From Patescibacteria group bacterium (GTDB taxonomy: Bacteria; Patescibacteriota; Microgenomatia; Daviesbacterales; UBA10151): a stretch of 64,000 bases of DNA. The DNA lies in NCBI GenBank assembly GCA_023379125.1, contig JAMCSY010000004.1:58479-122478 (forward strand), read 5' to 3'. The notes under the pieces are model-generated. The model did no database searches and had not been told where the DNA came from. It was given only the letters and a program-made list of their open reading frames with translations. The translations under genes were made by a program, and so were the position numbers. The first letter of the stretch is position 1, and each line of letters starts with the position of its first letter. This document shows positions 22,517-43,461 of this stretch, piece by piece.

Positions 22517-22960
22517 TTATTTTTCTACAATTTCCCTCACAATTTTACCAATAAGCTCAAACGGAAATGGTTTGTCTAGTGGGAAATGAAAAGATGCCCT
22601 GGTAACTTGGTAGTCTTTTAACAGTTCCAATGATTTTCCTGCACGAGTTGGGGGTAAGTAAACGGCAATATAATTTTTAGATAAGCCAAAGTATATTAAT
22701 CGACTTTTAAAACCAGAACCGCCATATTCATAAAATGGCATACCATAGCTAATTTTTTCATGGGCTTTTGGCGCTGCTTTTATTATTTCTTGGCGAAGTT
22801 TAGTTAATGTTGCTTGAATTTCCTTAGGCGCCTGGGTAATATAAGAATCCACATCTTTTGGTATTTGCTTATTTTTCATTATAGTAAAAGTATAACAAAA
22901 AGTTATAATAAACTGCTGGAAGGGTGTCTGAAATAGCCTAATTATAATGCTCCACCTCAT
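22517..22960 (-). CDS. DUF1801/YdhG-like protein
   Basis: VDSYITQAPKEIQATLTKLRQEIIKAAPKAHEKISYGMPFYEYGG matches the YdhG-like family. Confidence 0.55.
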   Translation of the reverse strand: MRWSIIIRLFQTPFQQFIITFCYTFTIMKNKQIPKDVDSYITQAPKEIQATLTKLRQEIIKAAPKAHEKISYGMPFYEYGGSGFKSRLIYFGLSKNYIAVYLPPTRAGKSLELLKDYQVTRASFHFPLDKPFPFELIGKIVREIVEK

Positions 22961-22983: not shown

Positions 22984-23730
22984 TCACTGCTTAATAAAAT
23001 TATTACTTTTTCCCAAGTTACACTCTTCGCATAGTGTTTGTAAATTCTCTATTGTGCTTTTACCTCCTTTTGAAAAAGGAATCATATGGTCAATGTGAAG
23101 TTTGGTACCTATATCTGTAGCTGGGCTTTTTCCACAAAATACACATCTAAATTGATCTCGCGACAACACTTTTAATCTTAGACTTAAAGATATTGTTCTT
23201 GAATCAGAGGAGCTCCGTACGTATTCTCTTTCCATACCCCCAACCTGTTTAACTTCTTTAGTAAGTTCACTTTTATTATTGTCATCTGAAACAGTTACGT
23301 TCCCTGATTTTGATTCGATAAATTTGAGACAAGCATTTTGCCAACTACCGAAATGTCGAGGATAAGTATCGTAGCTTATTTTATAATCACTCCCAAGCCA
23401 CTCATCTTTAGATGGTTGATGACCGATTTTTATCCATATGCGTTCCATCTCGCCGAAAAGTTCTTTATCTGAATAGCTAGTTCTTCTCGACGTAAGTTTA
23501 AAATCTATTCCTTTACTATGTAAATGTTTCACTAGGAAATTCATGGCATTTTGCCAAGAGCCAAATTCTCGATAAACGGTATAACTACTAATAGACGCTA
23601 CCTTATCAAAGTCGTCTTGCCTGAAGTCGGTATAATTATTATTCCTTGCAACAGTTTCGAGTTCGGAAATAATACGATCCCTTTTTATTTTGCTTCCCTG
23701 ATATTTCCTTAATTCAAATTTGAAACTCAT
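22984..23730 (-). CDS. HNH endonuclease with two N-terminal homing-endonuclease-associated repeats
   Basis: C-terminal CVFCGK...HIDHMIPFSKGG...NLQTLCEECN HNH motif; a duplicated ...FGSWQNA... repeat in the N-terminal half. Confidence 0.7.
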   Translation of the reverse strand: MSFKFELRKYQGSKIKRDRIISELETVARNNNYTDFRQDDFDKVASISSYTVYREFGSWQNAMNFLVKHLHSKGIDFKLTSRRTSYSDKELFGEMERIWIKIGHQPSKDEWLGSDYKISYDTYPRHFGSWQNACLKFIESKSGNVTVSDDNNKSELTKEVKQVGGMEREYVRSSSDSRTISLSLRLKVLSRDQFRCVFCGKSPATDIGTKLHIDHMIPFSKGGKSTIENLQTLCEECNLGKSNNFIKQ

Positions 23731-23747
23731 AATAAAATTATTCGATT

Positions 23748-24638
23748 TTAATAGTTTTGAGGCGACTCTACGTAACCATCAAAAATAGCGGCCTCGATCT
23801 CATGCTTCTTTGGGTTATCGTCATCGAACGCATCCTCAACCATCTTTAGATCTAATAACGATTCGTCTTTAACTTTTTCAAAAGCTCCGGCGCTTAAAAA
23901 ATTACCATAAAAGTTTCTCTGGGGATTTACTACATTTTGTTCAAGTTGAATATCGAAATTATTCTTTAAATATTCCGTGATTTTGATATACACTGCTTCC
24001 GCTAGGCCATTATAAAGCTGTTGATTCTGAATATTACCGTGAATTAGTTTATGGCGTAAGCCAGTGCCATAGAGATAGAGTTTATCGTATAGCTCATTGC
24101 CTAAAATTGCTTTTAAAGCATTTTGATCTGTTCTCACTCTACCGTTTGCTCTAATCTCTCCTGCAAATCCTTCAGCAGCTCCAAGAAGCATCGTTAATCG
24201 AGTGATCGCCGTCATAGAATTTGCAGCTTCCATAATATAAAAGAGACCGTTTTTGTTAGGAATAGATTGAAATTTGGGCAACTGTTCGATCTCTTGTGTG
24301 TCAAAATGAAGCCCTGTGTGGCTAACTCCCTTGACGTAGTATATATAAATAATATTTTCAGGATTATGAGTTTTTTTAAATATGAAATAACTATTTGCAG
24401 CTAAACGGAACGCGCATTGAGATACCACTGAAAACTTTTCTACCTCAGGAATTAGCTCTGTAATAAACTTATACCTTGCTTCACCGGCATTATTGGCGCT
24501 TATGATTTTCGACGCAACCCACGCATCACAATTCCACCATTCGTTAGTGTAGGAACTGAAGTTATATCCTCCTGAGTTAAATCCCTGAATAAGTTCGGCT
24601 ACAGTTGCAATTTTATAGCTGATAAGATAATCGTTCAT
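23748..24638 (-). CDS. Hypothetical protein, middle gene of a four-gene operon
   Basis: 296 aa; start/stop overlap with the upstream gene (ATGA at 24638). Confidence 0.5.
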   Translation of the reverse strand: MNDYLISYKIATVAELIQGFNSGGYNFSSYTNEWWNCDAWVASKIISANNAGEARYKFITELIPEVEKFSVVSQCAFRLAANSYFIFKKTHNPENIIYIYYVKGVSHTGLHFDTQEIEQLPKFQSIPNKNGLFYIMEAANSMTAITRLTMLLGAAEGFAGEIRANGRVRTDQNALKAILGNELYDKLYLYGTGLRHKLIHGNIQNQQLYNGLAEAVYIKITEYLKNNFDIQLEQNVVNPQRNFYGNFLSAGAFEKVKDESLLDLKMVEDAFDDDNPKKHEIEAAIFDGYVESPQNY

Positions 24639-26089
24639 TATTTTTGTTTTCGATACAACTCTTCGTTTACAATTACTCCGTCATCTGTTTTTTGAATGTA
24701 CGGTTCGTGATGAGAGTCAGGGACGAAACCAAATCCTGAAGCATAAATGTCTTGGATAATAGATCCAGCAATCTTTTCTGATTTAATTAAATCCTCGGTA
24801 TCATAAGGTCCAAACTGCCAATTATCCTTTTTCTGAGTACCGACATTTGAACGAATAAAATTATTTACGGTCAATACAAGCGAGTATTTGCCTCCATTTT
24901 TCGTTATAAATCCAATTTCCACATCATAAGATAATCGTTCTTTATCAATGATCCCAGCATTAATTAATGCCTTGATAAATAAAAAGAAACTATTCACATA
25001 TTCAACAAAAGCAAAGGCGTTTAATAATTTTTTACCCTCATTCTTCTCGTCGTCTTGAAGACCCCAATCAAGAAACTCTTGTATATTAGCTCCTGCAGCA
25101 ACAATCCCATTTTTCGTAACTTTAAGTATCTTCCTATTACCGTTCATAACCTCCCAACTGTTTCCCTCGGGTTGAGGATATTCACTGTAGGCAACACTTA
25201 AATCCCAACCCATATTCCTTAATATGGGCGGATTCTTCATATGGTGATATATCGATCCATCTGACTTATCCCAGAAGTTATTGAGAGTTACCCCTCTTGT
25301 GGGAGTAGCAACCATATAAAAGACATCTGCCTCGGCATCAAGTTTATTGATAAATTCCTCGACTATTCTTTTTTTTTGTTCTACGTCTGGAGGTTGAATC
25401 GCGGATTTAGTCTGAGATTCCTCTATCCGATCCGCTATTGCAGATAGTCGACTTATTTGATTTTCAACACTTACGTTAGTCATGGAACCCGATAAAACAC
25501 CGGCCACATATTCTTGAAACTTGTGGGCGTCGACTAGTTGAATGTTTTTTGCGCCATCTCGAGTATATATTCCATAAACCTGCCCTTTAAGTACAATCTC
25601 TTCTTTTGGATTCCATTGGTCTTGAGGAATGATGAAGGGGTATAAGCCCATATCTTTGGCGTTGGGTATCTTAATCCACAACACTTCTTTATCTTTACTC
25701 ACAAACCCCGATGCAATCTTTTCTCTGGGAAAACGAGGTACTAAACCATCAGACAGTATATCCAGCCACCGTTCAATATCTAAAGCTTTTGCTTCTATTC
25801 CACAAACAGATTTTACATACTCAACCTGTCTGCCTTTAACGGTATCGGGAACCAAACCAATTAGCAAATATCCACCCCCGCTATTGGAGATTGAGGAAAT
25901 ATCCTTTAATAGCTCTGTTCTGGATTTATATTTAGCCCAGTCTTTTCCTGATTTTTCTTCTTCGAAGTAGGGTTTTTCTCGAAACTCGAAATAAGAAGTT
26001 TCTAACGCACCAATAAAAAGGCTCGGGTCATTATTCTTAATTATTTCCTCTATCTCTTGGATAGATAGAAGCTTCGTTGTAACTTCCAT
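24638..26089 (-). CDS. Protein with an N-terminal AlbA_2/Schlafen-like (divergent-AAA) DNA-binding domain and no P-loop
   Basis: The N-terminal ~100 aa (IQEIEEII...ELLKDISSISNSGGGYLLIGLVPDT) match the PF04326 pattern; there is no Walker A anywhere in the 483 aa. Confidence 0.5.
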   Translation of the reverse strand: MEVTTKLLSIQEIEEIIKNNDPSLFIGALETSYFEFREKPYFEEEKSGKDWAKYKSRTELLKDISSISNSGGGYLLIGLVPDTVKGRQVEYVKSVCGIEAKALDIERWLDILSDGLVPRFPREKIASGFVSKDKEVLWIKIPNAKDMGLYPFIIPQDQWNPKEEIVLKGQVYGIYTRDGAKNIQLVDAHKFQEYVAGVLSGSMTNVSVENQISRLSAIADRIEESQTKSAIQPPDVEQKKRIVEEFINKLDAEADVFYMVATPTRGVTLNNFWDKSDGSIYHHMKNPPILRNMGWDLSVAYSEYPQPEGNSWEVMNGNRKILKVTKNGIVAAGANIQEFLDWGLQDDEKNEGKKLLNAFAFVEYVNSFFLFIKALINAGIIDKERLSYDVEIGFITKNGGKYSLVLTVNNFIRSNVGTQKKDNWQFGPYDTEDLIKSEKIAGSIIQDIYASGFGFVPDSHHEPYIQKTDDGVIVNEELYRKQK

Positions 26090-26097
26090 AGTTCATA

Positions 26098-26361
26098 TCA
26101 AAAGGGCAGAAGCTTCCCCGCACTCACGTTGAGAGCTTTAGCAAGCTTATAGAGATTAATAAGAGATGGGTTCCTTACTCCTCTCTCAATTTGCCCAATA
26201 TAGGTAAAGTGCATACCGGCTTTATCGGCTAGCTCTTCCTGGGTCCACTCCTTTTCTTGCCTAAGTTTCCTTAGGTTTTGGCCAAAGGCCTTACGTATAT
26301 CTATCATACCCAATAAAACTACAAAAATGAAGACGATGTATCCAGAGACGATAAGTCTCAA
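26098..26361 (-). CDS. XRE-family HTH transcriptional regulator (true start probably at the internal Met near 26307)
   Basis: LRKLRQEKEWTQEELADKAGMHFTYIGQIERGVRNPSLINLYKLAKALNVSAGKL; its stop is 8 bp from the downstream gene. Confidence 0.75.
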   Translation of the reverse strand: MRLIVSGYIVFIFVVLLGMIDIRKAFGQNLRKLRQEKEWTQEELADKAGMHFTYIGQIERGVRNPSLINLYKLAKALNVSAGKLLPF

Positions 26362-27952: not shown

Positions 27953-28453
27953 ATGGCAAACGAACTAGTCAGAGAAAAAACGAAGCAAAAGTTTCTAGAT
28001 ATCCTCTCCGAAGAGGCAGGAGGTAATATCAGCGAGGCTTGTAAAGCAGTTGGTTTTAGCAGGCAAGCCATTAATGAATGGCGGTTAAACGACCATAGCT
28101 TTGATAATCGAGTACAACAGGCAATCTTAAACGGAAAAGAGGATCTAGCTGATTTAGCAGAAACACATCTACAAAAAAGAATTCGTAATGGGGACACAAC
28201 AGCAATTATTTTTACACTTAAATCTTTAAGACGAACATTTTTTGGGGAAAGAATTGAAGTCGAAACGGCAAAAAAGAGCAACAATGGTCGAGCTATTAGT
28301 TTAACTCCTGGCTTTTCAAAAACTCTGTTAGCAATCGGTTTAAAGCAAGCCCCGACTAACGTTCTTACCGAAGAGCAAAGAAAACAACTTAATGGATTAG
28401 TTGGAATTTTTGAAGATTATTATGATAATCTTAATGAAGACGATAAGTCTTAA
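27953..28453 (+). CDS. Terminase-small-subunit-like HTH protein
   Basis: GGNISEACKAVGFSRQAINEWRLNDHSFDNRVQQAI resembles terminase small subunit / Psq-type HTH proteins. Confidence 0.45.
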   Translation: MANELVREKTKQKFLDILSEEAGGNISEACKAVGFSRQAINEWRLNDHSFDNRVQQAILNGKEDLADLAETHLQKRIRNGDTTAIIFTLKSLRRTFFGERIEVETAKKSNNGRAISLTPGFSKTLLAIGLKQAPTNVLTEEQRKQLNGLVGIFEDYYDNLNEDDKS

Positions 28454-28459
28454 TTCAAT

Positions 28460-30289
28460 ATGAATAAATTCTTTATATATTGCCGAAAATCTTCAGAACA
28501 GGAAGATAGACAAGTTTTATCTTTACCTGGGCAAGCTCGAGAACTGCAAGAATACGCCAAAAGGGAAGGTTTGACGATTGTCGATACTTATCAAGAATCA
28601 AAAAGCGCACATTGGGCTGGCAGAATTGACTTTAATAACATGCTTATGAGGATTAGAAGCGGTGAAGGTAACGGAATAATAGTCTGGGACGAATCTAGAA
28701 TAGCTAGAAACGCTTTAGATAGCGGTACCGTAATCTATATGATCGATCTTCAGGAAATTGTAGAGATTAGGAAGCCTGGAAAAGTATATAAAAACACCCC
28801 TGACGATAAAAGTTGGTTAGCTATGTGTTTTATGATGTCTAAAAAGGAATCAGACGATAAAGGTGTGAGTGTAAAGAGAGGGCTAAAAACTAAAGCAGAA
28901 AAGGGTTATTTGCCTAGTGGAGCTAAAGCAGGTTATATGAACGATAAATATGCGGAAAAAGGTAATAAAACACTCTTAGTAGATCCCGTCAGATTCCCAC
29001 TTATAAAAAAGACGTGGGAAATGTTCTTAACTGGAATTTACAGCCCTCCACAAGTATTAAATAAGCTAAATGACGAATGGGGGTACAGAACTCCCCAACA
29101 TAAACGCATAGGTGGTAAACCAATGACAAGAAGTCAGATATATAAAACTTTAGCCGACCCTTTTTATTATGGAGTATTTGAATATCCCGAAGGTAGTGGA
29201 AATTGGTATCAGGGCAAACATGAACCCATGATAACCAAAGATGAGTTCGATAGAGCGCAAATGCTTCTTGGCAAAAAAGGTAGGCCAAGACCTAAAACCC
29301 ATGATTTTACCTATACAGGCTTACTTACTTGTGGCGAATGCGGAGCGATGATTACTGCTGAAGAAAAATATCAAGTCATATGTCCTGTTTGTAAATTAAA
29401 GTTTGCCTCTCTCAATAAAGATAGCTGTCCGGAGTGCAAAACAAGAATTGAAGATATGATTAAACCAACACTTCTTCACTACACTTATTACCACTGCACC
29501 AAACGTAAGAAAAAAACATGCTCACAGCTAGGCATTCGTCTCGAAAAAATGGAGGCTCAAATTGAGGGATTATTATCCCGAATCCAAATATCAGAGCGCT
29601 TCAAAAATTGGGCGATTAAGTATTTAAATGAACTGAACGTTATTGAAACTGAAGATAGAGACGTGATCTTAAAATCACAACAAGAAGCTTATGATGATGT
29701 GGTTAAACGAATTGATAACTTAATAAAGCTTAAGATCTCACCTCAAAACACCGATGGTTCATTACTCTCCGATGATGATTTTAAGAGACAAAAAGAGGAT
29801 TTAATGAAAGAAAAGTCTACGTTACAAGAAAAACTCGGAGACACAGACAATCGTATAAATAAGTGGGTAGAGTTATCAGAAAAAACGTTCAACTTTGCAT
29901 GCCATGCTCGCTATTGGTTTGCTAATGGCGACACAGAAACGAAAAAGCAGATATTAATGGGGATAGGTTCGAACCTAACGCTAAAAGATAAAACTGTGCT
30001 TGTAGACCTAGAAAAACCATTACAGTTTATAGAAGAAGCTAAAAACGAAGTACCGGAAATATCACCAATGTTCGAACCTACAAAAAAGGGCCTCACTGAG
30101 ACCCAATTAGGGGTTTTATATTCTCAAAATCCAACTCTGCTCCCTAGCCCTAAGGATATTATACTGCCCCAATTTGAGGCTATTTTAAAGGCATTTACTA
30201 ACCCTATTTGGATGGGAGAAATGCGCGTTCGATGGAATGAAATTAAGAAATTAAGCCGAGAACCTAATCCGGCACTTGTAGTAGCATGA
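28460..30289 (+). CDS. Large serine recombinase (integrase)
   Basis: N-terminal resolvase catalytic domain (IYCRKSSEQEDRQVLSLPGQ), recombinase domain, Cys4 zinc ribbon (CGECGAM...CPVCK...CPECK) and a C-terminal coiled coil. Confidence 0.85.
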   Translation: MNKFFIYCRKSSEQEDRQVLSLPGQARELQEYAKREGLTIVDTYQESKSAHWAGRIDFNNMLMRIRSGEGNGIIVWDESRIARNALDSGTVIYMIDLQEIVEIRKPGKVYKNTPDDKSWLAMCFMMSKKESDDKGVSVKRGLKTKAEKGYLPSGAKAGYMNDKYAEKGNKTLLVDPVRFPLIKKTWEMFLTGIYSPPQVLNKLNDEWGYRTPQHKRIGGKPMTRSQIYKTLADPFYYGVFEYPEGSGNWYQGKHEPMITKDEFDRAQMLLGKKGRPRPKTHDFTYTGLLTCGECGAMITAEEKYQVICPVCKLKFASLNKDSCPECKTRIEDMIKPTLLHYTYYHCTKRKKKTCSQLGIRLEKMEAQIEGLLSRIQISERFKNWAIKYLNELNVIETEDRDVILKSQQEAYDDVVKRIDNLIKLKISPQNTDGSLLSDDDFKRQKEDLMKEKSTLQEKLGDTDNRINKWVELSEKTFNFACHARYWFANGDTETKKQILMGIGSNLTLKDKTVLVDLEKPLQFIEEAKNEVPEISPMFEPTKKGLTETQLGVLYSQNPTLLPSPKDIILPQFEAILKAFTNPIWMGEMRVRWNEIKKLSREPNPALVVA

Positions 30290-31268: not shown

Positions 31269-31958
31269 ATGGATGAATTTACTTTTGTAAAACTTCTAAA
31301 ACAAATTTTCACCCAGGAAGGCTTCTTAGCAAAAAGAGAAATAGGAGTAGGTTATGGAGTTGCTGATTTAGTTTTAATCAAAAACACGGCCATAAACAGC
31401 AATAACTGCTCAATCAGAAAAAACCATAAACAATACACTCCACTCCTAAATGAAAAGTATTTCCAAACGTTAAAGGTGTTACCTGACGAAAATGACCAAG
31501 ACAAATCCCTCCCATTTAGTCTTATAGCTAAACAAACAAACTTCTCCGAAAGCTACTTGCGTTACACCATCCTTAAAAAATTGGAAAGGCACGGTTACGT
31601 TAAAAAGGACGGCAATAAAAAGTATTTTAAAGTTAACGGTTGGTTGCCAATAGCCAATGAGGTAATAGCTATTGAGGCTAAACTGAAGGATTGGAAAAGA
31701 GGCGCGATACAAGCAAATAGGTATAGGGCATTTGCTAATAAGGTTTATTTAGCTATTCCTAAAGAAACGGAACGATTAGTTGACAAAAAATTCCTAAAGA
31801 AAATTAACGTCGGCTTAATTATTTTAGACGTAGAGAAAAATGCTAAAAGAACGGTTATCGCTAGTAAGAAGTTTAAACCCTTAGACGAATATAAACACCA
31901 TTTAGCGGCAGAATATTTCTGGAATAAAAGAGAGTTAATAAATTTTACCCAAATTTAG
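31269..31958 (+). CDS. Hypothetical protein
   Basis: 229-aa ORF. Confidence 0.4.
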   Translation: MDEFTFVKLLKQIFTQEGFLAKREIGVGYGVADLVLIKNTAINSNNCSIRKNHKQYTPLLNEKYFQTLKVLPDENDQDKSLPFSLIAKQTNFSESYLRYTILKKLERHGYVKKDGNKKYFKVNGWLPIANEVIAIEAKLKDWKRGAIQANRYRAFANKVYLAIPKETERLVDKKFLKKINVGLIILDVEKNAKRTVIASKKFKPLDEYKHHLAAEYFWNKRELINFTQI

Positions 31959-32384
31959 CTTCTCTAGGCTGTCTATAAACCTTTTCCCCGTTACCGCTCT
32001 GATACCATCATAGTTTTTAATATCCAAAACGTCCTTATCCCCAGAAATTATTATTTGAGCGCCGCATGCTTTAGCAACTCGAAACCAAATATCATCGTCT
32101 TTATCACGGGTAATACTCACTCCTTCCAGCACTTCGTATGGTTCAACGATTTTTATAAGCGATCGGTAATCAAGAACTAACTTTTCAGGAGTATATATTT
32201 GTTTTTTCCAATATTTTTGGACCCTTTTAACTAGGATTTTTTCCTTAAATTCAGCAAAGGTTTCCTCACTGCCATACAGCACTATTTTCTTTGCTAAGGA
32301 CAAGTTAAGTATTTTCCGAGGATATCCGGGAAACCCTAACATACCGGAGAGCATTATGTTTGTGTCTGGAACTACTTTTATCAT
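31935..32384 (-). CDS. PIN-domain nuclease (PIN_3 family toxin-like), last gene of the R-M operon
   Basis: MIKVVPDTNIMLS ... DKDDDIWFRVAKACGAQIIISGDKDVLDI matches the PIN_3 acidic-residue pattern. Confidence 0.65.
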   Translation of the reverse strand: MIKVVPDTNIMLSGMLGFPGYPRKILNLSLAKKIVLYGSEETFAEFKEKILVKRVQKYWKKQIYTPEKLVLDYRSLIKIVEPYEVLEGVSITRDKDDDIWFRVAKACGAQIIISGDKDVLDIKNYDGIRAVTGKRFIDSLEKLNLGKIY

Positions 32385-33574
32385 TGTTCATTATCAAGTT
32401 CATTTAGTAATTGATTTAGGGAAGCTTCATCACTTTCAGTCATATATTCCCAATCACTAGCAGTATCAAGAACAGCAATCCATCGTTGTAAGTGATCGGT
32501 TTTAAACGGCGAGGCGTAATCCCTAACATATTGGCCAACAAGCGATACCGCACTTTGAAGACTACTTTTCATTAACTTAATACGCTCTTCACGACTAAGA
32601 GGCGCTAAACTATCCATCACCGCCATTCGTCTTTCAAGGAAATGCAACTTCTTATTTTTCGCGTCATTTGGTATACCACCATTACAGTAAGAGCAACTAC
32701 ACTGATAACCGATTTTCTTAAGCTCGACATCGTTAGCGTAATCAAATATTTCCGGTACATATGTCCAGCCACCATTTCTTCCAAATCCCTTTTTACGAGC
32801 CTCAAGGTTTTTAACGGAAAATGTTTCACCGGCACCTAAACCGCTTGAAAAACCACTTCCCCCTATTGCGCTAAGTACCTCGCCGAAACCACCAAGGTGT
32901 TTGGTAAATACATATTTGTCTTTGGATAATTGGAATACTAAATCAGCTAAACCGATGAGGTGGTCTAAGTCTGCCTTACGGGCATCAAGGTCGTTAATAG
33001 TAACAAAATATCCAGCAATTTTGTCTTTAAAGTCGCCGCTGTACATGTCAACCACATAGTTCCTGACCTGTGGCCTCAACAAAACTCCGCCGCCGAGGTT
33101 AATACTGGCAAAAACCGGTTTCTGAATATGCTGCTCTTCTAAATACCTTAAAGTTTCGGAAAGTAGAGTTAAATTAAGGGTAAATTTAATATCATCGGTG
33201 TCCTCGCTATAAAAAGCAGGTGCAACAATAACACAGGCATTGGCGTTAACTTGAGAGGTAACCGCCGGAATTATTACCTTATTTAACCTTTCAGTAGCGT
33301 TACTATAAAGAGTTTCGGGGACAATATTGTCGCCGTAAGACAGCTTTTTATAATTCTTTTTGTTCCGTGCGCCGGGATAAAGTAATTGAACCGTTGCAGG
33401 ATCAACGATAATAGGTTCTCCCAATTCAACGGCTTTTTGCGCTACCACAGGCCGCCACACAGTGTGATGTAAGTCCATCAATACCACTGGAACTTCAATT
33501 CCAGCTTCAAATATGCTTAAATCCGCAATTTTCGGTATAAAAATCGGCAATTTGCTAAATAATTGGTCGCTCAT
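32381..33574 (-). CDS. Hypothetical 397-aa protein between hsdS and the PIN gene
   Basis: Overlaps both neighbours by 4 bp; Gly-rich segment GGFGEVLSAIGGSGFSSGLGAGE; CSCSYCNGG. Confidence 0.5.
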   Translation of the reverse strand: MSDQLFSKLPIFIPKIADLSIFEAGIEVPVVLMDLHHTVWRPVVAQKAVELGEPIIVDPATVQLLYPGARNKKNYKKLSYGDNIVPETLYSNATERLNKVIIPAVTSQVNANACVIVAPAFYSEDTDDIKFTLNLTLLSETLRYLEEQHIQKPVFASINLGGGVLLRPQVRNYVVDMYSGDFKDKIAGYFVTINDLDARKADLDHLIGLADLVFQLSKDKYVFTKHLGGFGEVLSAIGGSGFSSGLGAGETFSVKNLEARKKGFGRNGGWTYVPEIFDYANDVELKKIGYQCSCSYCNGGIPNDAKNKKLHFLERRMAVMDSLAPLSREERIKLMKSSLQSAVSLVGQYVRDYASPFKTDHLQRWIAVLDTASDWEYMTESDEASLNQLLNELDNEQ

Positions 33575-34926
33575 AATTGTTCACTACTAAATGTCTTTGA
33601 TAACACAGCTTGTGTTAACTTTGCAACTTTTAACTCAGCTCTTTCAATTTGTTTCTCAACTTGGTTAGCAATATCAAAGTAAAATTTTACTTGGCGTACT
33701 ATTTCTTCCTGTTCTGCTAGAGAACAAAATGGTACTTCAAACTTTCCGAGTTTTTGAGCATTGATGTTTGATTGACTGACACCGTCCGTCTTTACTTGAT
33801 AGCAGAAATCGCGGGCATACTGTGAATTAAGGCAATAATTTAAATATTCGGAATTAAGCTCAGGAAAATTGTTTATTTTTATAAGGTATCCGGCAAATAT
33901 TGCCTCATGTTCACCTCTGTAAATACTTGTTTTGCCAACTAACTCGGGACTATTCGTACGATTAAACAGTACGTTGCCGGTTTTCAGTTTATATTTTTCA
34001 ATTTCGTCTGGGTCTGATGTGTAGACCAAACTTTCCCAATCAATTTCACCATTTTGTAAATTACCCATACGTAACACGGGTATTTTTCCTTCGGGGTTTG
34101 ACTTCGCCGAGGTTCCATACTGAAACCCTTCGCAAAGTTTATCCAATGCTACAAGTTCCCACTCATCGGGCAAATCAGCGATATTATTTTCTTCCTCGTA
34201 AGAATATATCGTTTCAATTTTCTTTTTCTCTGTACTCGTGGCCTTGCTTAGCCGTCGAGCTTTAAGGTCGTCAACTACCTTTTTGGTTGATTCTTGTTGG
34301 TTTTTTTCTCTCCACTCCTCAGTAAGCCTGCCTGTTATCGCGGCGGATATAATGGCTTGTCGAAATTTCTGTACCAATTTTTTGGCCTTTTTAATCCCTT
34401 TAAGCGAAAGACTAATTTTATTAATATCATTTTCTAACTTTTCTGCTACGATGTGCTGAAGTGCGATGTCCTCTGGATATGAAATTTCTAGTTCTTCGAA
34501 TGCCCGTTTTGAAATACCCGTAAAGGTTGAACCCTGTCCTTTTTCTTCAAGGAGAGGTTTTACAACTTGAGCAAAATAAAAAAGAAATATACTATCGATT
34601 CGATTGTTTGGCCTTAAGGAAGCTAAACCTCTACCAATACAGCACTTTTCCGCAGCCATGTTTACATCACCTATGGGAGCTCTTACCGATACTAATACAT
34701 CCCCTTTTTCTGCTATTTTTTTAGGTTCGTTGGTATAAACCGTTACTTTTGGGTATTTAATTCCAAAATCCTTATTTCCTTGGAAAAAAGGTAGACCATT
34801 GCCTTTTTTGTTATACGAAGACGATGGGGGCGATTGTCCCATTATAATTTGAGCAACGTCTGGTAGTGGATTAGTTACCCAAACATCATTAGGTCTATTT
34901 TGTTGTTCCGTTTTCGAGTTCTGCAT
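33571..34926 (-). CDS. hsdS: Type I restriction-modification specificity subunit
   Basis: 451 aa with two target-recognition-domain-like halves separated by conserved helical spacers; sits directly after hsdM. Confidence 0.75.
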   Translation of the reverse strand: MQNSKTEQQNRPNDVWVTNPLPDVAQIIMGQSPPSSSYNKKGNGLPFFQGNKDFGIKYPKVTVYTNEPKKIAEKGDVLVSVRAPIGDVNMAAEKCCIGRGLASLRPNNRIDSIFLFYFAQVVKPLLEEKGQGSTFTGISKRAFEELEISYPEDIALQHIVAEKLENDINKISLSLKGIKKAKKLVQKFRQAIISAAITGRLTEEWREKNQQESTKKVVDDLKARRLSKATSTEKKKIETIYSYEEENNIADLPDEWELVALDKLCEGFQYGTSAKSNPEGKIPVLRMGNLQNGEIDWESLVYTSDPDEIEKYKLKTGNVLFNRTNSPELVGKTSIYRGEHEAIFAGYLIKINNFPELNSEYLNYCLNSQYARDFCYQVKTDGVSQSNINAQKLGKFEVPFCSLAEQEEIVRQVKFYFDIANQVEKQIERAELKVAKLTQAVLSKTFSSEQL

Positions 34927-36325
34927 ATATTTGCTCTAAACTATTGGTTGCTTCCTTTAGCTCTGATAAAGCATCGGTTATAAGCTCTTCCGGCTCACCA
35001 ATTTCTTCACTATCCTCAATGTCCTCCTCCTTGAGCCACTTAAAACTATCAAGTTTGTAATTTTTGTCCTTTACCTGTTGCATCGTAAATTTCTTCCAAC
35101 GATTTTCATTTGAGTCGTTTTCATTTCGCGATGATTGCCCATTCGCATTTTCGCCATAACATTTTTCAAACTCGGTAAAGTGTGCCGGAGTTAATGGTCT
35201 GTCTTTTTTAGTAATTCCCGGCACATTTGTACGCGCGTCATATATCCAGACATTTTCAGTCGGCATACCCTTAACAAAAAACACAACATTAGCTTTTACA
35301 CCCTGGCTGTATGGGGTGAATGTTCCTCGGGGTAAACGTAAAATTGTATGCAAATTACAGTCCTGCATTAGAAGTTTAAATACTTCCGCTGCTTGGTCGC
35401 CGAAAAGTACGTTGTCCGGTAGCACAACGGCCGCACGGCCACCTGGTTTAAGGATTGTTAGTATGTGCTGGACAAAATTTAGTTGCTTATTACTTGTACC
35501 TACAGTAAAGTCCTGGCGTTCGGGTATTTGGTTAGCGCCTTTAGTACCGAATGGAGGATTAGTTAGGACTACATCGTAACGATCGCCCTTATCAGGTTCA
35601 TAAATAGAGTCGCCTAAGCGGATATGTGATTCAATACCGTGTAAGTATAGGTTCATTAACGCTAGTCTTCGCGGTCTTGCTACTAATTCAGTTCCAAAAT
35701 AAGTCTTTTTCCTTATCCGTTCTAAGTCTTCACGGTTAATCGCGCTTCCTGTTTGTTGTAAAAACCATTCGTAAGCGCTTAATAAAAAGCCGCCTGTTCC
35801 AGCTGCCGGATCACATATAGTAAAGTCTTTGGCTGTCCGAGGATCAGGCTTCATTACACTAACTATGGATTGAATTAAAACACGCGGGGTAAAGTATTGG
35901 CCTGCGCCTTTTTTACCTTCGGCGGCTGACTTTTCCAGCAACCCTTCGTAAGCTTGGGCTTTAACATCAATGTTTAATCCTGTCCATTCAATTTCATCAA
36001 TCAAGTCTATTAACCTTTTCAGGTTTACCGGCTTAGTAAATTTTGATAATGCCTCGGCAAATATTGCGCCTAATAATCCTTCCTGTTTGGCTAATCCGCG
36101 TAAAAGCTCACTATAAAAATCGGTTAACTCTGTACCGGCTTTTGATTTCAATACTGACCATGAATACTCTTTAGGAATTACTGCTCCTCTTTCCTCAGCC
36201 ATTTTAAGAAACAGTAAATAAGTTAGCTGTTCAACGTAATCGCCGTAATCCATCCCGTCATGGCGGAGAACATGGCAGTATCCCCATAATTTGTTAACAA
36301 TGTTTGTGTTAGTTTGCATAGGCAT
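34895..36325 (-). CDS. hsdM: Type I R-M N6-adenine DNA methyltransferase subunit
   Basis: LTNPPFG catalytic motif, AdoMet-binding DPAAGTGGFL and an HsdM N-terminal domain. Confidence 0.9.
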   Translation of the reverse strand: MPMQTNTNIVNKLWGYCHVLRHDGMDYGDYVEQLTYLLFLKMAEERGAVIPKEYSWSVLKSKAGTELTDFYSELLRGLAKQEGLLGAIFAEALSKFTKPVNLKRLIDLIDEIEWTGLNIDVKAQAYEGLLEKSAAEGKKGAGQYFTPRVLIQSIVSVMKPDPRTAKDFTICDPAAGTGGFLLSAYEWFLQQTGSAINREDLERIRKKTYFGTELVARPRRLALMNLYLHGIESHIRLGDSIYEPDKGDRYDVVLTNPPFGTKGANQIPERQDFTVGTSNKQLNFVQHILTILKPGGRAAVVLPDNVLFGDQAAEVFKLLMQDCNLHTILRLPRGTFTPYSQGVKANVVFFVKGMPTENVWIYDARTNVPGITKKDRPLTPAHFTEFEKCYGENANGQSSRNENDSNENRWKKFTMQQVKDKNYKLDSFKWLKEEDIEDSEEIGEPEELITDALSELKEATNSLEQIYAELENGTTK

Positions 36326-39011
36326 ATACCTGTGGCATACTTGCGTTTAGCTCGCTTATAAACGGTAATAACTTATTGTCAAAATCATCGTTAATGCGCT
36401 TAAAATTGCCGCCTAAGTTAATAAATATCGGCATATCGTCAAAGTCTTCCGGCTCAATGGTTAGGTTTTCAACTAAATGTAGTTTTATTAGCTCCAACCA
36501 TTTTCGTTGCTTATCGGTTAGGTTTTTACCACCGATTACTTTTTCCATTGCCAGGTCTACACGTTCTTTAGCCGATAACAACGGCTCGTCTTTAGCGGCG
36601 TGTTTGACCATAGAAATAATATCAGCTAAGGGGTATTTATAAGCGCGGCGTAGGTTACTTTCGGTAAAGCGCTCCGGTTGTTCGGCTAATGATTGTCTAA
36701 GTTCTTTCAGCGCTTCGGTATTCCATGCCTGCGGCTTTTGTAAAACTATACTTATAGCTTCAATATGCTCTGGGTTGTCCTTTACAAACTGCTCAAATTG
36801 TTGGATATAATCCTCAGGTTTTAACTCGCGCCCGTCAGTTGTCCTAAACACATACTGCGATCCAACGGTGTCTTCCTGTTCAATCGCCCTTATAAACCGT
36901 TTTGGCGGCCTTGGGTAGTTTTTCAGTAGGTCAATAAACTTAGGATCGGTTAATACTTTCAACGTACCCACTCTATCCTCCGCCAGTTTATCAGGTAAAT
37001 TTTTTGCAAAAGCGCTTATATCACCATCAGTAATATACTTCGCAAACATTTCCCGGCCTTCGGCGGTAATGTTTTTGGCTATTCGTTGTAGTCTTTTAAC
37101 TAAACATCGGGTGTTGTATTCAACATCAACGTTGTTATTAATCGCGTTTATTATTTCCTCAATCGTACGGGTAGGGTTAACCGGCGTTACTTGGGTAATA
37201 CCGGTACTATTTTTAAAGGCTTCTAGTAGGGTTCCGTCAAAACAGTCAAATACGGTAAAGTGAGTTTTGGGTGGTGTGCCTAACCCATTAGGGAAATTAC
37301 TGCATAAACGCGTACCGCGTCCAAGCATTTGTTCAAACAAAATGCGGGACTTTACCGGCCTTAAAAATATAATGTTTTCTATTGCCGGTATATCAACTCC
37401 GGTTGAAAGCATATCAACGGTTACTACTATGTGCGGCTCTGGGCGATTTCTAAACTCTTTGATACGGGTTAACGGCCTATCAACTGTTGGTGAACCGGTT
37501 ATTTTCTGAACAAAAGCATCGCCTCTGCCAAATACATCACGGCAAATATCAACGAGTTGATCGGCATGGGAAGTGTGGGATAAATCGTTATCAGCAAATA
37601 TTAAAGTCTTTGGAAAACGGCCGGTTTCTTCCTCTTGTTGTAAAGCGTACTTTGCAAACTCTTGGATTATTTTGCGGTTACTATCAGGTGCGGTAATATC
37701 CCGCTCAACTTCAGTAACTTCAAAATGGCGTTCATCCTCAAGTAAATCAAGCTGTTGCGCGCCGGTATTCGGATCAACTTGTTCAACTTCTTCCCCCTCT
37801 TTTAAGGTAATCCCCTCAAGGCGGACACCGGAGGAAATTTTGACAGCATCATAATCAACTAAGTAACCGTCTTGTACTGCTTGTTCATAGGTATAACGGT
37901 AAGCAATTTCTTTAAAATAACTTGTGGTATGGGCGGCAGGAGTAGCGGTTAATCCGATTTTAACAGCGTCAAAATGGTCTAAGACACCGCGCCATTTGCT
38001 TATTTCTTGTGAAGTATAACCGCGGTGGCATTCATCAGCGATAATCGTATCAAAAGCGTTAATCGGCATATCAATTTTATCGGCATCATCATCGGGATCG
38101 TAATCACCGCTATAACTAAACATACCCTCTCGGCCGTAAAGGTTTATTTGCATCCGTTGGATCGTTGAAACATAAACAAAAACTTGGTTTCCGTCAGGAT
38201 CAGTTAAGTAAGCGGTTGGGATTACATTAAAATCAACCTTTTCATTACTGTCAAAATCATCAATTTTAAAACGTTGGCTATACACCTGATAAATTTGGTT
38301 AAACTTCAAACCGTTTTCTGCCTCATAAGCGGCAAACTCCATGACGGCTTGGGCGGCTAAGGCTTTTCTATCAACTAAAAATAGTATTCGTTTACTTGTA
38401 CCGGACTTTAATAAACGATAAATAAGCGAAGCTACGGTAAAGGTTTTGCCTGTACCGGTTGCCATAGCGACAAGCATTGAACGCTTATTATCGGTAATCG
38501 TTTTTTCGATCGCGGTTATAGCATCACGTTGATAATAGCGTAGCTTTCCCTCTGCGGGTGGGTTTTGGGCAAACCATTTTGTATTTTCGTAAGCGTCATT
38601 ATTAAGGTATTCAATTAAGGCTTTAGGTGTATGGAACTCCTGTATTTGCCGAGAACGGCTAGGGTTATGTCTTAAGTCTTGGAACCATATAACCTCACCG
38701 TTAGTTGAGTATATAAACGGAACCTCAATTCCGCTTTGCCCAGCTCCTTTAACGTAGCGCTGAGCTTGTTGGAGAACATTTTGGGGACCTAAGGATATTT
38801 TCTTAGCTTCAACGAAAGCGACTAGCTTCCCATTAGCAAAAAGTGCGTAATCAACCGGTCCGGTTGCCGTCATGTATTCTTCAACGGCGGTTTTGTGTAA
38901 GTTTGTGGTGTCTAAACCTTCCTCATAACGGATTATTTTATCCCAACCCGACTTTTTAAGTTTTTCGTCGATCCACTTCTTACGAGTGGTCTGCTCGTCG
39001 ATAATTTCCAT
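36309..39011 (-). CDS. hsdR: Type I restriction enzyme R subunit (helicase-nuclease)
   Basis: Walker A MATGTGKTFT, DEAH-box IIADECHRG and the helicase C-terminal QMLGRGTR motif. Confidence 0.9.
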   Translation of the reverse strand: MEIIDEQTTRKKWIDEKLKKSGWDKIIRYEEGLDTTNLHKTAVEEYMTATGPVDYALFANGKLVAFVEAKKISLGPQNVLQQAQRYVKGAGQSGIEVPFIYSTNGEVIWFQDLRHNPSRSRQIQEFHTPKALIEYLNNDAYENTKWFAQNPPAEGKLRYYQRDAITAIEKTITDNKRSMLVAMATGTGKTFTVASLIYRLLKSGTSKRILFLVDRKALAAQAVMEFAAYEAENGLKFNQIYQVYSQRFKIDDFDSNEKVDFNVIPTAYLTDPDGNQVFVYVSTIQRMQINLYGREGMFSYSGDYDPDDDADKIDMPINAFDTIIADECHRGYTSQEISKWRGVLDHFDAVKIGLTATPAAHTTSYFKEIAYRYTYEQAVQDGYLVDYDAVKISSGVRLEGITLKEGEEVEQVDPNTGAQQLDLLEDERHFEVTEVERDITAPDSNRKIIQEFAKYALQQEEETGRFPKTLIFADNDLSHTSHADQLVDICRDVFGRGDAFVQKITGSPTVDRPLTRIKEFRNRPEPHIVVTVDMLSTGVDIPAIENIIFLRPVKSRILFEQMLGRGTRLCSNFPNGLGTPPKTHFTVFDCFDGTLLEAFKNSTGITQVTPVNPTRTIEEIINAINNNVDVEYNTRCLVKRLQRIAKNITAEGREMFAKYITDGDISAFAKNLPDKLAEDRVGTLKVLTDPKFIDLLKNYPRPPKRFIRAIEQEDTVGSQYVFRTTDGRELKPEDYIQQFEQFVKDNPEHIEAISIVLQKPQAWNTEALKELRQSLAEQPERFTESNLRRAYKYPLADIISMVKHAAKDEPLLSAKERVDLAMEKVIGGKNLTDKQRKWLELIKLHLVENLTIEPEDFDDMPIFINLGGNFKRINDDFDNKLLPFISELNASMPQVYAYAN

Positions 39012-39026
39012 AAATTTTTATGCTTA

Positions 39027-39218
39027 TTATTTATTTTTATTTTTTTCTATAAACCGTTCTATATCCTCAGGCTTATAACGCCTATCACCACGTACACTTA
39101 CCTTGACGGCGGGAAGTTTACCTTCCTTATCCCATCGGCGCAGGGTTTCAGGGTTAACCCCTAATATTTCTGCTGCCTCGCGAATTTTCAGTAACCTCAA
39201 CTTTTTACCGGTAGTCAT
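39027..39218 (-). CDS. Xis/AlpA (MerR-superfamily) excisionase-type HTH protein
   Basis: LLKIREAAEILGVNPETLRRWDKEGKLPAVKV; its stop lies 16 bp before the hsdR start. Confidence 0.65.
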   Translation of the reverse strand: MTTGKKLRLLKIREAAEILGVNPETLRRWDKEGKLPAVKVSVRGDRRYKPEDIERFIEKNKNK

Positions 39219-39641: not shown

Positions 39642-39745
39642 CTCCCTTCGTCAAACATTAACTACGTCTTTTTATAAGGAGGCGGGCAACAAAAAGCTCC
39701 CCGCCAGCGATGGCTTTCGCCACCCACGCAGGTTTCCCCACGCGA

Positions 39746-39794: not shown

Positions 39795-39912
39795 AGCCAT
39801 GCCTCTTGCGAGGTTTAGGCGTAAGTAAATTTGGAAACTTACCTCACGTTAATTATACATAATTCTACAGGCTCCGGTATAATCGGATAAGGTAATAAGG
39901 ATAAAAATAAGA

Positions 39913-43401: not shown

Positions 43402-43461
43402 GATTCGAACCTACAACCTTGTCGTTAACAGCGACCTGCTCTACCGTTGAGCTACAGAGGA
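43390..43461 (-). tRNA. tRNA-Asn (anticodon GUU)
   Basis: Reverse complement reads TCCTCTG-TA-GCTC-AACGGTA-GAGC-A-GGTCG-CTGTTAA-CGACA-AGGTT-GTAGG-TTCGAAT-CCTAC-CGGAGGA-G. The UCCUCUG start resembles canonical bacterial tRNA-Asn. It overlaps the recombinase stop by 12 nt. Confidence 0.8.

What the first reader, a model, noticed from the sequence alone, without database searches (positions are those of the whole stretch)
22984..26361. Four-gene operon XRE regulator / Schlafen-AlbA_2-like protein / unknown 296-aa / HNH endonuclease: candidate undescribed defence module
All four genes are co-directional with 0-8 bp spacing or overlapping start/stop codons, so they are very likely co-transcribed. 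The XRE HTH gene is first. The 483-aa protein has an N-terminal divergent-AAA/AlbA_2 (Schlafen-type) DNA-binding domain but no P-loop. The 296-aa middle protein has no recognisable domain. The last protein joins two FGSWQNA homing-endonuclease-associated repeats to an HNH nuclease. The operon sits at the edge of a recombinase-bearing island next to a Type I R-M system. That neighbourhood is typical of anti-phage islands. It does not match Septu, because no ATPase is present, or any other system I can name.
Basis: partly seen in the sequence, partly recalled or inferred. Interest (0 to 1): 0.7.

Follow-up and report, generated by a model that had tools for sequence, protein, structure and literature searches.

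The report
Stacked nuclease genes in defence island
The four genes are real, but they are three separately mobile nuclease genes (a bacterial Schlafen, a new HEPN-like predicted RNase and a common HNH endonuclease) lined up behind a repressor in a tRNA-linked mobile island of a Patescibacteria genome, not one new four-part defence system.

Summary
Four co-directional minus-strand genes lie at 22984-26361: XRE, a 483-aa SLFN/AlbA_2 protein, a 296-aa protein with no family match, and an HNH_repeat-HNH protein.

The interpretation as one undescribed four-gene module is not supported. The trio recurs only in one to two close relatives (76-88% aa identity). In about 12 other contexts of the 296-aa family, 10 of the 483-aa family and 2 of the HNH family, the partners differ or are absent.

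- **HNH protein:** more than 600 relatives. Elsewhere it sits alone beside serine recombinases.

All three families travel in serine-recombinase islands at tRNA genes. The XRE looks like the island's repressor, because its operator-like 13-mer recurs just before the recombinase gene. This is an ordinary defence-island stack with one moderately novel protein family.

The parts
26098..26307 (-). XRE/Cro-CI-type HTH regulator, 69 aa. The mechanical ORF extends to a TTG at 26361. Probable island repressor or controller heading the nuclease genes.
   Evidence: HTH_3 E 3.7e-20. PADLOC Control_protein E 1e-20. NCBIfam RstR-type repressor E 1.9e-14, below cut-off. The 91%-identical homologue in L035 starts at MIDIRK and heads a Schlafen gene.
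26331..26359 (.). Operator-like boxes AGACGATGTATC and AGACGATAAGTC, including the palindrome GAGACGATAAGTCTC. They lie about 25-50 nt upstream of the XRE ATG, in the divergent intergenic region.
   Evidence: Sequence read directly. Conserved upstream of the L035 XRE. The 13-mer AGACGATAAGTCT occurs only twice in the 64-kb window, against 0.04 expected.
24638..26089 (-). Prokaryotic Schlafen (pSlfn), 483 aa. It has an N-terminal SLFN/AlbA_2 nuclease domain (about residues 25-185, motif E30-x4-E35-x-R37, invariant D63), a low-confidence helical linker (about 188-250) and a conserved C-terminal domain of about 230 aa with no family assignment (putative sensor).
23748..24638 (-). 296-aa two-domain protein of an unannotated family. 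It has an N-terminal alpha/beta domain (about residues 1-105, plus strand 247-256) and a helical HEPN-like domain (about 114-228) with invariant R195-H-K-L-I-H200-G. Predicted metal-independent RNase.
22984..23730 (-). HNH_repeat x2 + HNH (Cys4 zinc-finger type) DNA endonuclease, 248 aa. It is the last gene of the 3.2-kb block shared with L006.
   Evidence: Pfam HNH_repeat 4.3e-15, HNH 2.8e-13. More than 600 relatives with the same architecture. Relatives lie beside serine recombinase + HTH_17 without the other genes. Nucleotide homology to L006 ends at 22948.
28438..28450 (+). Second copy of the 13-mer AGACGATAAGTCT. It ends 9 nt before the ATG of the large serine recombinase, inside the last codons of the TerS-like gene.
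27953..30289 (+). Island backbone: TerS-like HTH protein (27953-28453) and large serine recombinase 1 (28460-30289).
   Evidence: PHROG terminase small subunit 1.8e-13. Resolvase + Recombinase + Zn_ribbon_recom. Homologues lie next to relatives of all three nuclease families.
31935..39218 (-). Neighbouring defence operon: HTH_17, HsdR, HsdM, HsdS, an unannotated 397-aa ORF and a PIN protein.
42094..43461 (.). Serine recombinase 2 (42094-43401, +), whose 3' end overlaps tRNA-Asn (43389-43461, -). Probable integration site and proximal end of the island.
   Evidence: In L006 the same tRNA-Asn directly abuts the Schlafen/296-aa/HNH block.

Best explanation
The region is the distal 3.4 kb of a roughly 20-kb integrative island. 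The island runs from tRNA-Asn at 43461 to just past the HNH gene at about 22950. It carries two serine recombinases, a TerS-like gene, a Type I R-M system and a PIN protein.

The four genes are a lineage-specific stack, not one machine.

1. **XRE.** This protein is the island's repressor or controller. It probably binds the AGACGAT-type boxes in its own divergent promoter region and in front of the recombinase gene. It is transcribed together with the genes behind it, so those genes are expressed while the island is resident. From my own knowledge, this is the layout of lambda cI-rexAB.
2. **483-aa protein.** This is a single-gene prokaryotic Schlafen defence. Its C-terminal domain of about 230 aa would sense a phage cue and release the N-terminal Schlafen RNase (E30/E35/R37, D63). 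The RNase would cleave tRNA and stop translation.
3. **296-aa protein.** This is an autonomous two-domain effector of a previously unannotated family. A HEPN-like helical domain with an R-[H/N]-x3-H-G active site would act as a metal-independent RNase. Activity is probably dimeric and gated by the conserved N-terminal alpha/beta domain.
4. **HNH protein.** This is a DNA endonuclease that belongs to the backbone or selfish load of this class of serine-recombinase elements, not to the two RNases.

Shown here: gene content, folds, motifs, family sizes, lack of co-conservation, and island structure. Inferred: every activity, the trigger, the regulation, and co-transcription.
For: **Gene and domain content:**

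**Schlafen.**
- Pfam score above threshold.
- Invariant E30, E35 and D63, and R37 conserved in at least 90% of 23 homologues down to 33% identity.
- The motif sits where RorSlfn5 has its catalytic E15/D20. pSlfns are sensor-effector fusions, and 17% have unannotated partner domains (PMC13056530).
- A Schlafen with an unannotated C-terminus defends on its own (PMC13552941).

**HEPN-like protein.**
- In 101 members at 23-57% identity, only R195, H200 and R241 are invariant.
- The residue after R195 is H in 58 and N in 40 members. E156 is E in 95 and D in 5.
- These are the HEPN rules: Rx4-6H, a polar N/D/H after R, and an upstream acidic residue (PMC3710099).
- Six sub-threshold Pfam hits among members are to HEPN families.

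**Independence of the genes.**
- Of 25 loci with 296-aa relatives, only L006 (88% identity) has the Schlafen and HNH genes.
- The others have unrelated upstream genes, an XRE alone (L013), or no co-directional neighbour (L018-20, L003/15, L016).
- Of 11 distinct Schlafen contexts, only the window/L006 context has the 296-aa gene.
- The HNH family is more than 15 times larger. In L038-L044 it sits beside HTH_17 and a serine recombinase.

**Island.**
- L006 shares only window 26142-22948 (82% nt identity). There the block starts right after tRNA-Asn.
- Serine recombinase genes overlapping tRNA genes recur in L001, L004, L018, L032 and L038.

**Regulator.**
- PADLOC Control_protein, E 1e-20.
- The XRE-Schlafen pair is kept in L035, with XRE at 91% and Schlafen at 67% identity.
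- The operator-like 13-mer occurs twice, against 0.04 expected.
Against: - **Signs of coupling.** The Schlafen stop and the 296-aa start overlap (TAATG), which suggests translational coupling. The trio has been kept together in the window, in L006 and probably on a third contig (P0039/P0003, both with a longest contig of 14,864 nt). HEPN domains of the MAE_18760 family are known fused to Schlafen domains (PMC3710099). A functional link between the two RNases therefore cannot be excluded.
- **Weak spots in the HEPN call.**
  - Foldseek against PDB found nothing.
  - No Pfam HEPN model reaches threshold.
  - hhalign against a shallow Ymh alignment and PDB profile searches were negative.
- **Motif deviation.** The Schlafen motif has R where the published consensus has K.
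- **Promoters and terminators.** Scans are uninformative here: counts equal the shuffled expectation.
- **No functional data.** Nothing exists for any of these proteins or for any Patescibacteria phage.
Confidence: 0.6

Rival explanations
1. The Schlafen and the 296-aa HEPN-like protein, with or without HNH, form one cooperating system. For example, one acts as sensor or adaptor and the other as effector, or the system is a two-pronged RNase plus DNase abortive-infection module under XRE control. This is essentially the first reader's idea.
For: - 1-nt stop/start overlap between the Schlafen and 296-aa genes.
- The block is inherited together at 82% nt identity in L006, and probably on a third contig.
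- Schlafen-HEPN fusions are known (PMC3710099).
- Schlafen-family genes are followed within 90 nt by some gene in 8 of 11 contexts. Several of those genes carry Rx4-6H-like motifs or weak HEPN hits.
Against: - The partner is a different family each time: HEPN-like of various kinds, an HExxH protein, a DpnII-MboI REase, or unknown.
- The 296-aa family occurs solo or with other partners in about 11 of 12 contexts.
- Co-occurrence vanishes below about 75% identity.
- Tight spacing is the norm in this genome.
- Published pSlfns work as single genes (PMC13056530, PMC13552941).
Confidence: 0.2
2. Toxin-antitoxin or addiction cassette. The XRE protein is an antitoxin or repressor, and one or more of the nucleases are constitutively active toxins. 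Their job would be to stabilise the island, not to defend against phage.
For: - XRE profiles also match HipB/Y4mF-type antitoxins below cut-off.
- An XRE directly precedes a 296-aa relative in L013 and Schlafen relatives in L035 and L037.
- HEPN proteins are classic toxins (PMC3710099).
- The genes sit on a mobile island.
Against: - L006 keeps the three nuclease genes although its XRE is truncated to its last 20 or so codons. That should be lethal if XRE were the antitoxin.
- Many family members have no adjacent small HTH gene.
- The XRE is a bare 69-aa HTH with no extra toxin-binding domain.
Confidence: 0.1
3. The HNH gene serves the mobile element's own life cycle. It could cut DNA at a cos-like site together with the TerS-like protein in a phage-satellite-like element, or it could be a homing-type selfish nuclease. 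The reading of the two RNases is unchanged.
For: - HNH relatives sit next to a serine recombinase, an HTH_17 and a TerS-like HTH protein in L038-43 and L044.
- The window has a TerS-like gene (PHROG terminase small subunit, 1.8e-13) beside serine recombinase 1.
- HNH is the last gene before homology to L006 ends.
- The N-terminal repeats are Pfam's 'homing endonuclease associated repeat'.
Against: - No relative was found in the IMG/VR viral contigs with the patterns used.
- No large terminase, capsid or portal gene was seen in the island.
- The gene does not interrupt another gene.
- The role of HNH with terminases is recalled from the literature and was not tested here.
Confidence: 0.35

Closest known systems
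Prokaryotic Schlafen defence nucleases (pSlfn; RorSlfn5, EcoSlfn7; Enterococcus lactis Schlafen). Sources: PMC13056530, PMC13552941.
   Same: - SLFN/AlbA_2 (PF04326) nuclease domain at the N-terminus.
- Acidic Ex4E motif near the start of the protein, as in RorSlfn5 (E15/D20).
- Fusion to a non-nuclease C-terminal domain.
- Location in a defence island near serine recombinases and R-M genes.
   Different: - The motif ends in R instead of K in most members.
- The host is a Patescibacteria (CPR) bacterium.
- No activity has been tested.
- The gene is embedded behind an XRE gene and overlaps the next gene.
HEPN-superfamily abortive-infection and toxin RNases (AbiV, AbiA C-terminal domain, HepT, Csm6/Csx1, and the MAE_18760/MAE_28990 families). 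Source: PMC3710099.
   Same: - Invariant R-x4-H with H or N after the R.
- A conserved upstream acidic residue.
- A helical domain whose best structural matches are HEPN proteins.
- Defence-island and R-M neighbourhood.
- Other HEPN genes (Ymh) in sister loci.
   Different: - No significant sequence or profile match to any described HEPN family.
- A distinct conserved N-terminal alpha/beta domain of about 105 aa.
- An additional invariant R241 and a nearly invariant Q74.
- A uniform stand-alone architecture of about 300 aa.
- A beta-hairpin insert (often CxxC...CxxC in relatives) inside the helical domain.
Septu (PtuA ATPase + PtuB HNH)
   Same: The HNH domain gives weak PADLOC PtuB hits (best E 4.5e-7).
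   Different: - No PtuA-type ATPase and no Walker A motif in the 483-aa or 296-aa proteins.
- The HNH protein has a different architecture, with N-terminal HNH_repeat units.
Repressor-linked defence cargo of prophages (lambda cI-rexAB layout) and C-protein-controlled restriction genes. The lambda comparison rests on my own knowledge.
   Same: - A small HTH repressor or controller gene is followed directly by toxic or defence genes.
- Operator-like repeats lie in its promoter region.
- There is a strong PADLOC Control_protein match.
   Different: - No methyltransferase partner is adjacent.
- The cargo is RNases plus an HNH nuclease.
- The element is a serine-recombinase island at a tRNA gene in a CPR bacterium.
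- Binding and regulation are untested.

Membership tests
Prokaryotic Schlafen (pSlfn) defence nucleases | Significant match to the Schlafen/AlbA_2 domain (PF04326) | tested here: met
   31.7 bits against a gathering score of 25.3, E 2.5e-7, residues 30-154. 20 of 23 homologues carry a precomputed PF04326 hit.
Prokaryotic Schlafen (pSlfn) defence nucleases | Catalytic Ex4(E/D)xK motif (PMC13056530) | tested here: inconclusive
   E30-TSYF-E35-F-R37. Both glutamates are invariant. The last position is R in at least 90% of members and K in a few. The acidic pair is met. The K is conservatively replaced.
Prokaryotic Schlafen (pSlfn) defence nucleases | Schlafen/AlbA_2 fold | tested here: met
   [not shown]
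Prokaryotic Schlafen (pSlfn) defence nucleases | Fusion to an accessory (sensor) domain and location near defence genes | tested here: met
   A conserved C-terminal domain of about 230 aa. A Type I R-M system and a PIN protein lie within 10 kb. Relatives lie next to Type III R-M, GmrSD, RloB and DpnII-MboI genes.
Prokaryotic Schlafen (pSlfn) defence nucleases | Phage-triggered tRNA cleavage and protection from phage | not testable with these tools
   Needs biochemistry and a phage challenge.
HEPN superfamily RNases | Conserved Rx4-6H motif with a polar N/D/H after the R (PMC3710099) | tested here: met
   R195 and H200 are present in 101 of 101 divergent members. Residue 196 is H in 58 and N in 40. 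It is the only Rx4-6H in the protein.
HEPN superfamily RNases | Second conserved acidic residue upstream of the motif | tested here: met
   E156 is E in 95 and D in 5 of 101 members. The usual Ex3[KR] context is present in only 21 members (K at position 160).
HEPN superfamily RNases | All-alpha HEPN bundle fold | tested here: inconclusive
   [not shown]
HEPN superfamily RNases | Significant profile match to a described HEPN family | tested here: not met
   - No Pfam, NCBIfam or PADLOC hit for the window protein.
- Only sub-threshold HEPN hits (best E 0.005) in 6 of 101 members.
- hhalign against Ymh was negative.
- PDB profile searches were negative.
HEPN superfamily RNases | Metal-independent RNase activity | not testable with these tools
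   Needs purified protein and R195A/H200A controls.
Septu (PtuAB) | PtuA ABC/AAA-type ATPase encoded next to the PtuB HNH | tested here: not met
   PADLOC has no PtuA hit. There is no Walker A motif in the 483-aa or 296-aa proteins.
A conserved multi-gene defence system (generic criterion) | The component genes co-occur in the same order across divergent genomes | tested here: not met
   The trio is found only in L006 (82-88% aa identity), and probably on one more contig at 76-79%. It is absent from about 11 other 296-aa contexts, 10 other Schlafen contexts and 2 other HNH contexts.
R-M controller (C) proteins | Small HTH protein with palindromic C-box operators upstream of its own gene, controlling an adjacent restriction gene paired with a methyltransferase | tested here: inconclusive
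   PADLOC Control_protein, E 1e-20 over the full profile. Operator-like boxes are present and conserved in L035. No methyltransferase or classical REase lies in the same operon. The resemblance to the GACT-N3-AGTC C-box is recalled from memory only.
HNH_repeat-containing HNH (homing-type) endonucleases | HNH catalytic motif with a Cys4 zinc site, plus PF18780 repeats | tested here: met
   HNH 2.8e-13 and HNH_repeat 4.3e-15 with two stretches. The motifs CVFCG, HIDH, N and CEECN are present.
HNH_repeat-containing HNH (homing-type) endonucleases | Homing context (inside an intron or intein, or interrupting a target gene) | tested here: not met
   It is a free-standing gene between the 296-aa gene and DUF1801. 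In relatives it stands between HTH_17 and unrelated genes.

The most novel reading that the evidence does not exclude
The 296-aa protein founds a previously unrecognised, widespread family of stand-alone, sensor-coupled HEPN-like RNases. The family has at least 319 clusters at 50% identity, and every member is about 300 aa. A new conserved N-terminal alpha/beta domain would gate an R-[H/N]-x3-H-G active site. These proteins would act as single-gene anti-phage effectors carried on tRNA-targeting serine-recombinase islands, notably in Patescibacteria. In this lineage the protein may be translationally coupled to a Schlafen tRNase, giving a two-RNase defence.
Probability: 0.35. Interest if true: 0.5.

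Novelty: new member of a known kind. Interest (0 to 1): 0.3.

Why it matters
The finding does not open a new class of system. It has three modest uses.

1. It places a Schlafen-type nuclease with an unassigned sensor domain in Patescibacteria (CPR), whose phage defences are little studied. This extends a defence family validated in 2026 in Enterobacterales and Enterococcus.
2. It flags an unannotated family of about 300-aa proteins, at least 319 clusters at 50% identity, with a textbook HEPN catalytic signature and a new N-terminal domain. That family deserves a profile model and a test as a defence effector.
3. It shows that these genes travel as swappable cargo in serine-recombinase islands whose recombinase gene overlaps a tRNA gene. 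They often sit behind an XRE repressor. That layout is a practical bait for finding further CPR defence genes.

Tried and rejected
- **PADLOC, NCBIfam and PHROGs** on the 483-aa and 296-aa proteins gave no hits.
- **Septu** was rejected because there is no ATPase.
- **Foldseek against PDB** with the 296-aa model gave nothing significant.
- **The afdb50 library** was unavailable.
- **Profile searches against PDB sequences**, using the whole 296-aa family and its helical domain alone, gave only chance hits.
- **hhalign of the 296-aa family** against Ymh (a true HEPN family) and against the neighbouring 'FRNGHVH' family found no relationship. The alignments were shallow, with 4 sequences each.
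- **hhalign between the Schlafen family and the 296-aa family** found no shared domain.
- **IMG/VR viral contig scans** for all three families found no relatives. There is therefore no evidence that these are phage genes.
- **Promoter and terminator scans** gave counts equal to the shuffled expectation.
- **Direct repeats as att sites:** a 19-nt repeat at 22541 and 43633 brackets the island, but it is near chance level and serine recombinases do not need long repeats.
- **Third contig:** The evidence for that pair is only the equal contig length and sources.

Full report
**1. Observation**

ORF listing confirms four minus-strand genes:
- 26361/26307..26098: XRE.
- 26089..24638: 483 aa.
- 24638..23748: 296 aa.
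- 23730..22984: 248 aa.

Pfam results:
- XRE: HTH_3, E 3.7e-20.
- 483 aa: SLFN_AlbA_2, 31.7 bits against a gathering score of 25.3.
- 296 aa: nothing.
- 248 aa: two HNH_repeat units plus HNH.

PADLOC and NCBIfam add nothing for the two middle proteins. They match the XRE strongly to R-M 'Control_protein' models (E 1e-20) and the HNH only weakly to PtuB and REase HNH domains. There is no Walker A motif in the 483-aa or 296-aa proteins.

The spacers are 8 nt, a 1-nt overlap (TAATG) and 17 nt. The tight co-directional run continues into a DUF1801 gene and a small membrane protein. In this genome 23 of 57 same-strand neighbours are 20 nt or less apart. Spacing by itself therefore says little.

The XRE almost certainly starts at the ATG at 26307 (69 aa), as its 91%-identical homologue in L035 does.

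The source is a Patescibacteria MAG contig of 186,849 bp. NCBI calls the proteins 'ATP-binding protein', 'hypothetical protein M1563_00850' and 'HNH endonuclease'.

**2. The 483-aa protein is a prokaryotic Schlafen**

- An AlphaFold model from 23 homologues has pLDDT 79.8.
- In homologues down to 33% identity, E30, E35 and D63 are invariant and R37 is nearly so. This gives E-x4-E-x-R near the N-terminus.
- The 2026 study of bacterial Schlafens defines the catalytic motif as Ex4(E/D)xK. It shows that mutating E15/D20 of RorSlfn5 abolishes defence.
- The same study finds 97% of pSlfns fused to presumed sensor domains. Of the 5,930 pSlfns, 17% are fused to unannotated domains and 1.5% to TBP-like domains (PMC13056530).
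- A second study shows that a Schlafen with an unannotated C-terminus is a potent single-gene abortive-infection defence. It also shows that serine recombinases mark defence loci (PMC13552941).

I therefore file this protein as a pSlfn. The K-to-R change and the untested activity are the caveats.

**3. The 296-aa protein is probably a new HEPN-like RNase family**

*Size and conservation of the family*
- The word-indexed search found 36 close relatives.
- An exhaustive profile search found 319 clusters at 50% identity, essentially all about 300 aa.
- In an alignment of 101 members at 23-57% identity to the query, the only invariant columns are R195, H200 and R241.
- Position 196 is H in 58 and N in 40 members. 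G201 is 96% conserved. E156 is E or D in 100 of 101, and Q74 is present in 100 of 101.
- R195-x4-H200 is the only Rx4-6H in the protein.

*Match to the HEPN rules.* These are the rules of the HEPN superfamily: Rx4-6H, a polar N/D/H after the R, and an upstream acidic residue. HEPN enzymes are metal-independent RNases (PMC3710099).

*Structure*
- The model (pLDDT 86.7) has an N-terminal alpha/beta domain and a helical domain spanning residues 114-228.

*Sequence and profile searches*
- Six of the sub-threshold Pfam hits among the 101 members are to HEPN families.
- No profile reaches significance.
- Foldseek against PDB found nothing.
- PDB profile searches and hhalign against Ymh were negative.

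I rate 'HEPN-type RNase' at about 0.6-0.65.

**4. The HNH protein**

It has more than 600 full-length relatives with the same architecture. That is far more than either neighbour family.

In the two other contexts fetched, there is no Schlafen or 296-aa gene. The HNH gene follows a small HTH_17 gene and lies beside a large serine recombinase:
- One element is seen on 24 or more contigs at 61% identity (L038-43).
- The other is at 69% identity (L044).

Those elements also carry a relative of the window's TerS-like HTH protein. The window's HTH_17, which heads the Type I R-M operon, is 64% identical to theirs.

**5. Co-conservation test**

*296-aa family.* I fetched 25 loci with relatives of the 296-aa protein. 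Only L006, at 88% identity, also has the Schlafen and HNH genes. The other contexts are:
- Two membrane proteins upstream and a Type III-like R-M system downstream (L001/2/11).
- XRE, a 155-aa protein and a 238-aa 'FRNGHVH' protein (L007/8).
- Ymh-HEPN plus the same 238-aa family (L009/21).
- A 244-aa protein (L012).
- XRE alone (L013).
- A different HNH-like protein downstream (L004/17).
- An ATPase downstream (L003/15).
- No co-directional neighbour at all (L018-20, L016).

*Schlafen family.* The gene behind the Schlafen differs in each context:
- A 164-aa 'RHNVGFH' protein.
- A 292-aa 'RDVIVH' protein.
- An HExxH protein.
- A DpnII-MboI REase-like protein.
- A 226-aa protein.
- A 170-aa protein.
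- Nothing.

*Where the pairing breaks.* Pairing of the two families fails at 73% identity or less on the 296-aa side and 67% or less on the Schlafen side. A third co-occurrence at 76-79% identity is likely but rests only on equal contig length.

None of the three families was found in IMG/VR viral contigs.

**6. Island structure and regulation**

- blastn shows that L006 shares only window 26142-22948, at 82% nt identity.
- In L006 that block begins immediately after a tRNA-Asn gene, with the XRE reduced to its last codons.
- In the window the orthologous tRNA-Asn lies 17 kb away (43389-43461). It overlaps the 3' end of a second serine recombinase.
- The four genes are therefore the distal end of a tRNA-Asn island. 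Homology ends 36 nt after the HNH stop codon.
- Serine recombinase genes overlapping tRNA genes recur next to relatives of all three families: L001, L004, L018, L032 and L038.
- The XRE-Schlafen pair is conserved in L035, with XRE at 91% and Schlafen at 67% identity.
- Upstream of the XRE are two AGACGAT-type boxes that are conserved in L035.
- The 13-mer AGACGATAAGTCT occurs exactly twice in 64 kb, against 0.04 expected. The second copy ends 9 nt before the ATG of serine recombinase 1.

I infer that the XRE is the island's repressor or controller and that the nuclease genes ride in its operon.

**7. Verdict**

- The interpretation as one new four-gene module is not supported.
- The best reading is a lineage-specific stack of autonomous nuclease genes behind the island's repressor: a pSlfn tRNase-type defence, a new HEPN-like RNase family, and a common HNH endonuclease of the element backbone.
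- A functional coupling of the two RNases remains possible, at about 0.2. The stop/start overlap and the known Schlafen-HEPN fusions keep that option open.
- Novelty: a new member of known kinds. The unannotated HEPN-like family is the only moderately new item.
- Interest: 0.3.

Noticed in passing
window 39709-39821 (-): LOOT RNA (Rfam RF03000), full-length match at 86 bits against a gathering score of 46.4. It lies between the HTH_17/Type I R-M operon and the second recombinase segment of the island.
   Followed up: no
window 42094-43461; also L001, L004, L018, L032, L038: Large serine recombinase genes whose 3' ends overlap a tRNA gene (Asn, Pro or Met) recur in Patescibacteria loci that carry these defence-type genes. 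This looks like a family of tRNA-targeting serine-recombinase islands.
   Followed up: partly
window 27953-28453 (+): A 166-aa HTH protein directly before serine recombinase 1 matches PHROG terminase small subunit families (phrog_4044, E 1.8e-13). Relatives lie in L032 and L038-43 beside recombinases. This could be a satellite-like or prophage-remnant backbone.
   Followed up: partly
window 26346-26358 and 28438-28450: The exact 13-mer AGACGATAAGTCT occurs only at these two places, against 0.04 expected. One is in the XRE promoter region and one is just before the recombinase ATG. A related box AGACGATGTATC lies at 26331-26342. This is a likely operator set.
   Followed up: partly
window 22541-22559 and 43633-43651: A 19-nt direct repeat, AATTTTACCAATAAGC(T/A)CA, brackets the whole 21-kb island including tRNA-Asn. 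It is near chance level and may or may not be an att remnant.
   Followed up: no
window 32381-33574 (-): A 397-aa ORF sits inside the Type I R-M operon between hsdS and a PIN gene. It has no Pfam, PADLOC or PHROG match and could be an R-M-embedded accessory defence gene.
   Followed up: partly
L007 702-1418, L008 1088-1804, L009 7246-7989, L021 4365-5087: A 238-247-aa family lies immediately upstream of 296-aa relatives. It has an invariant 'CFRNGHVHLF' (R-N-x3-H) and no Pfam or PADLOC hit, so it may be another unannotated HEPN-like family. In L009 and L021 it follows a Ymh (PF09509) HEPN gene.
   Followed up: partly
L032 2687-7318: A sister island at tRNA-Asn has a recombinase 56% identical to the window's serine recombinase 1. 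It carries an XRE, then Ymh-HEPN, a Schlafen homologue (42% identity), a 292-aa 'RDVIVH' protein and a 218-aa 'RNPLTH' protein. This is a run of predicted RNases.
   Followed up: partly
window 3250-3322 (-): tRNA-Ile with anticodon TAT (UAU), an uncommon bacterial tRNA species. Several tRNA clusters (48080-53443) and a tmRNA (54177-54570) are also in the window.
   Followed up: no
296-aa family members: Many relatives carry a CxxC...CxxC insert at the position of the beta-hairpin 161-170 inside the helical domain. The window protein lacks this insert. It is probably a zinc ribbon near the predicted active site.
   Followed up: no
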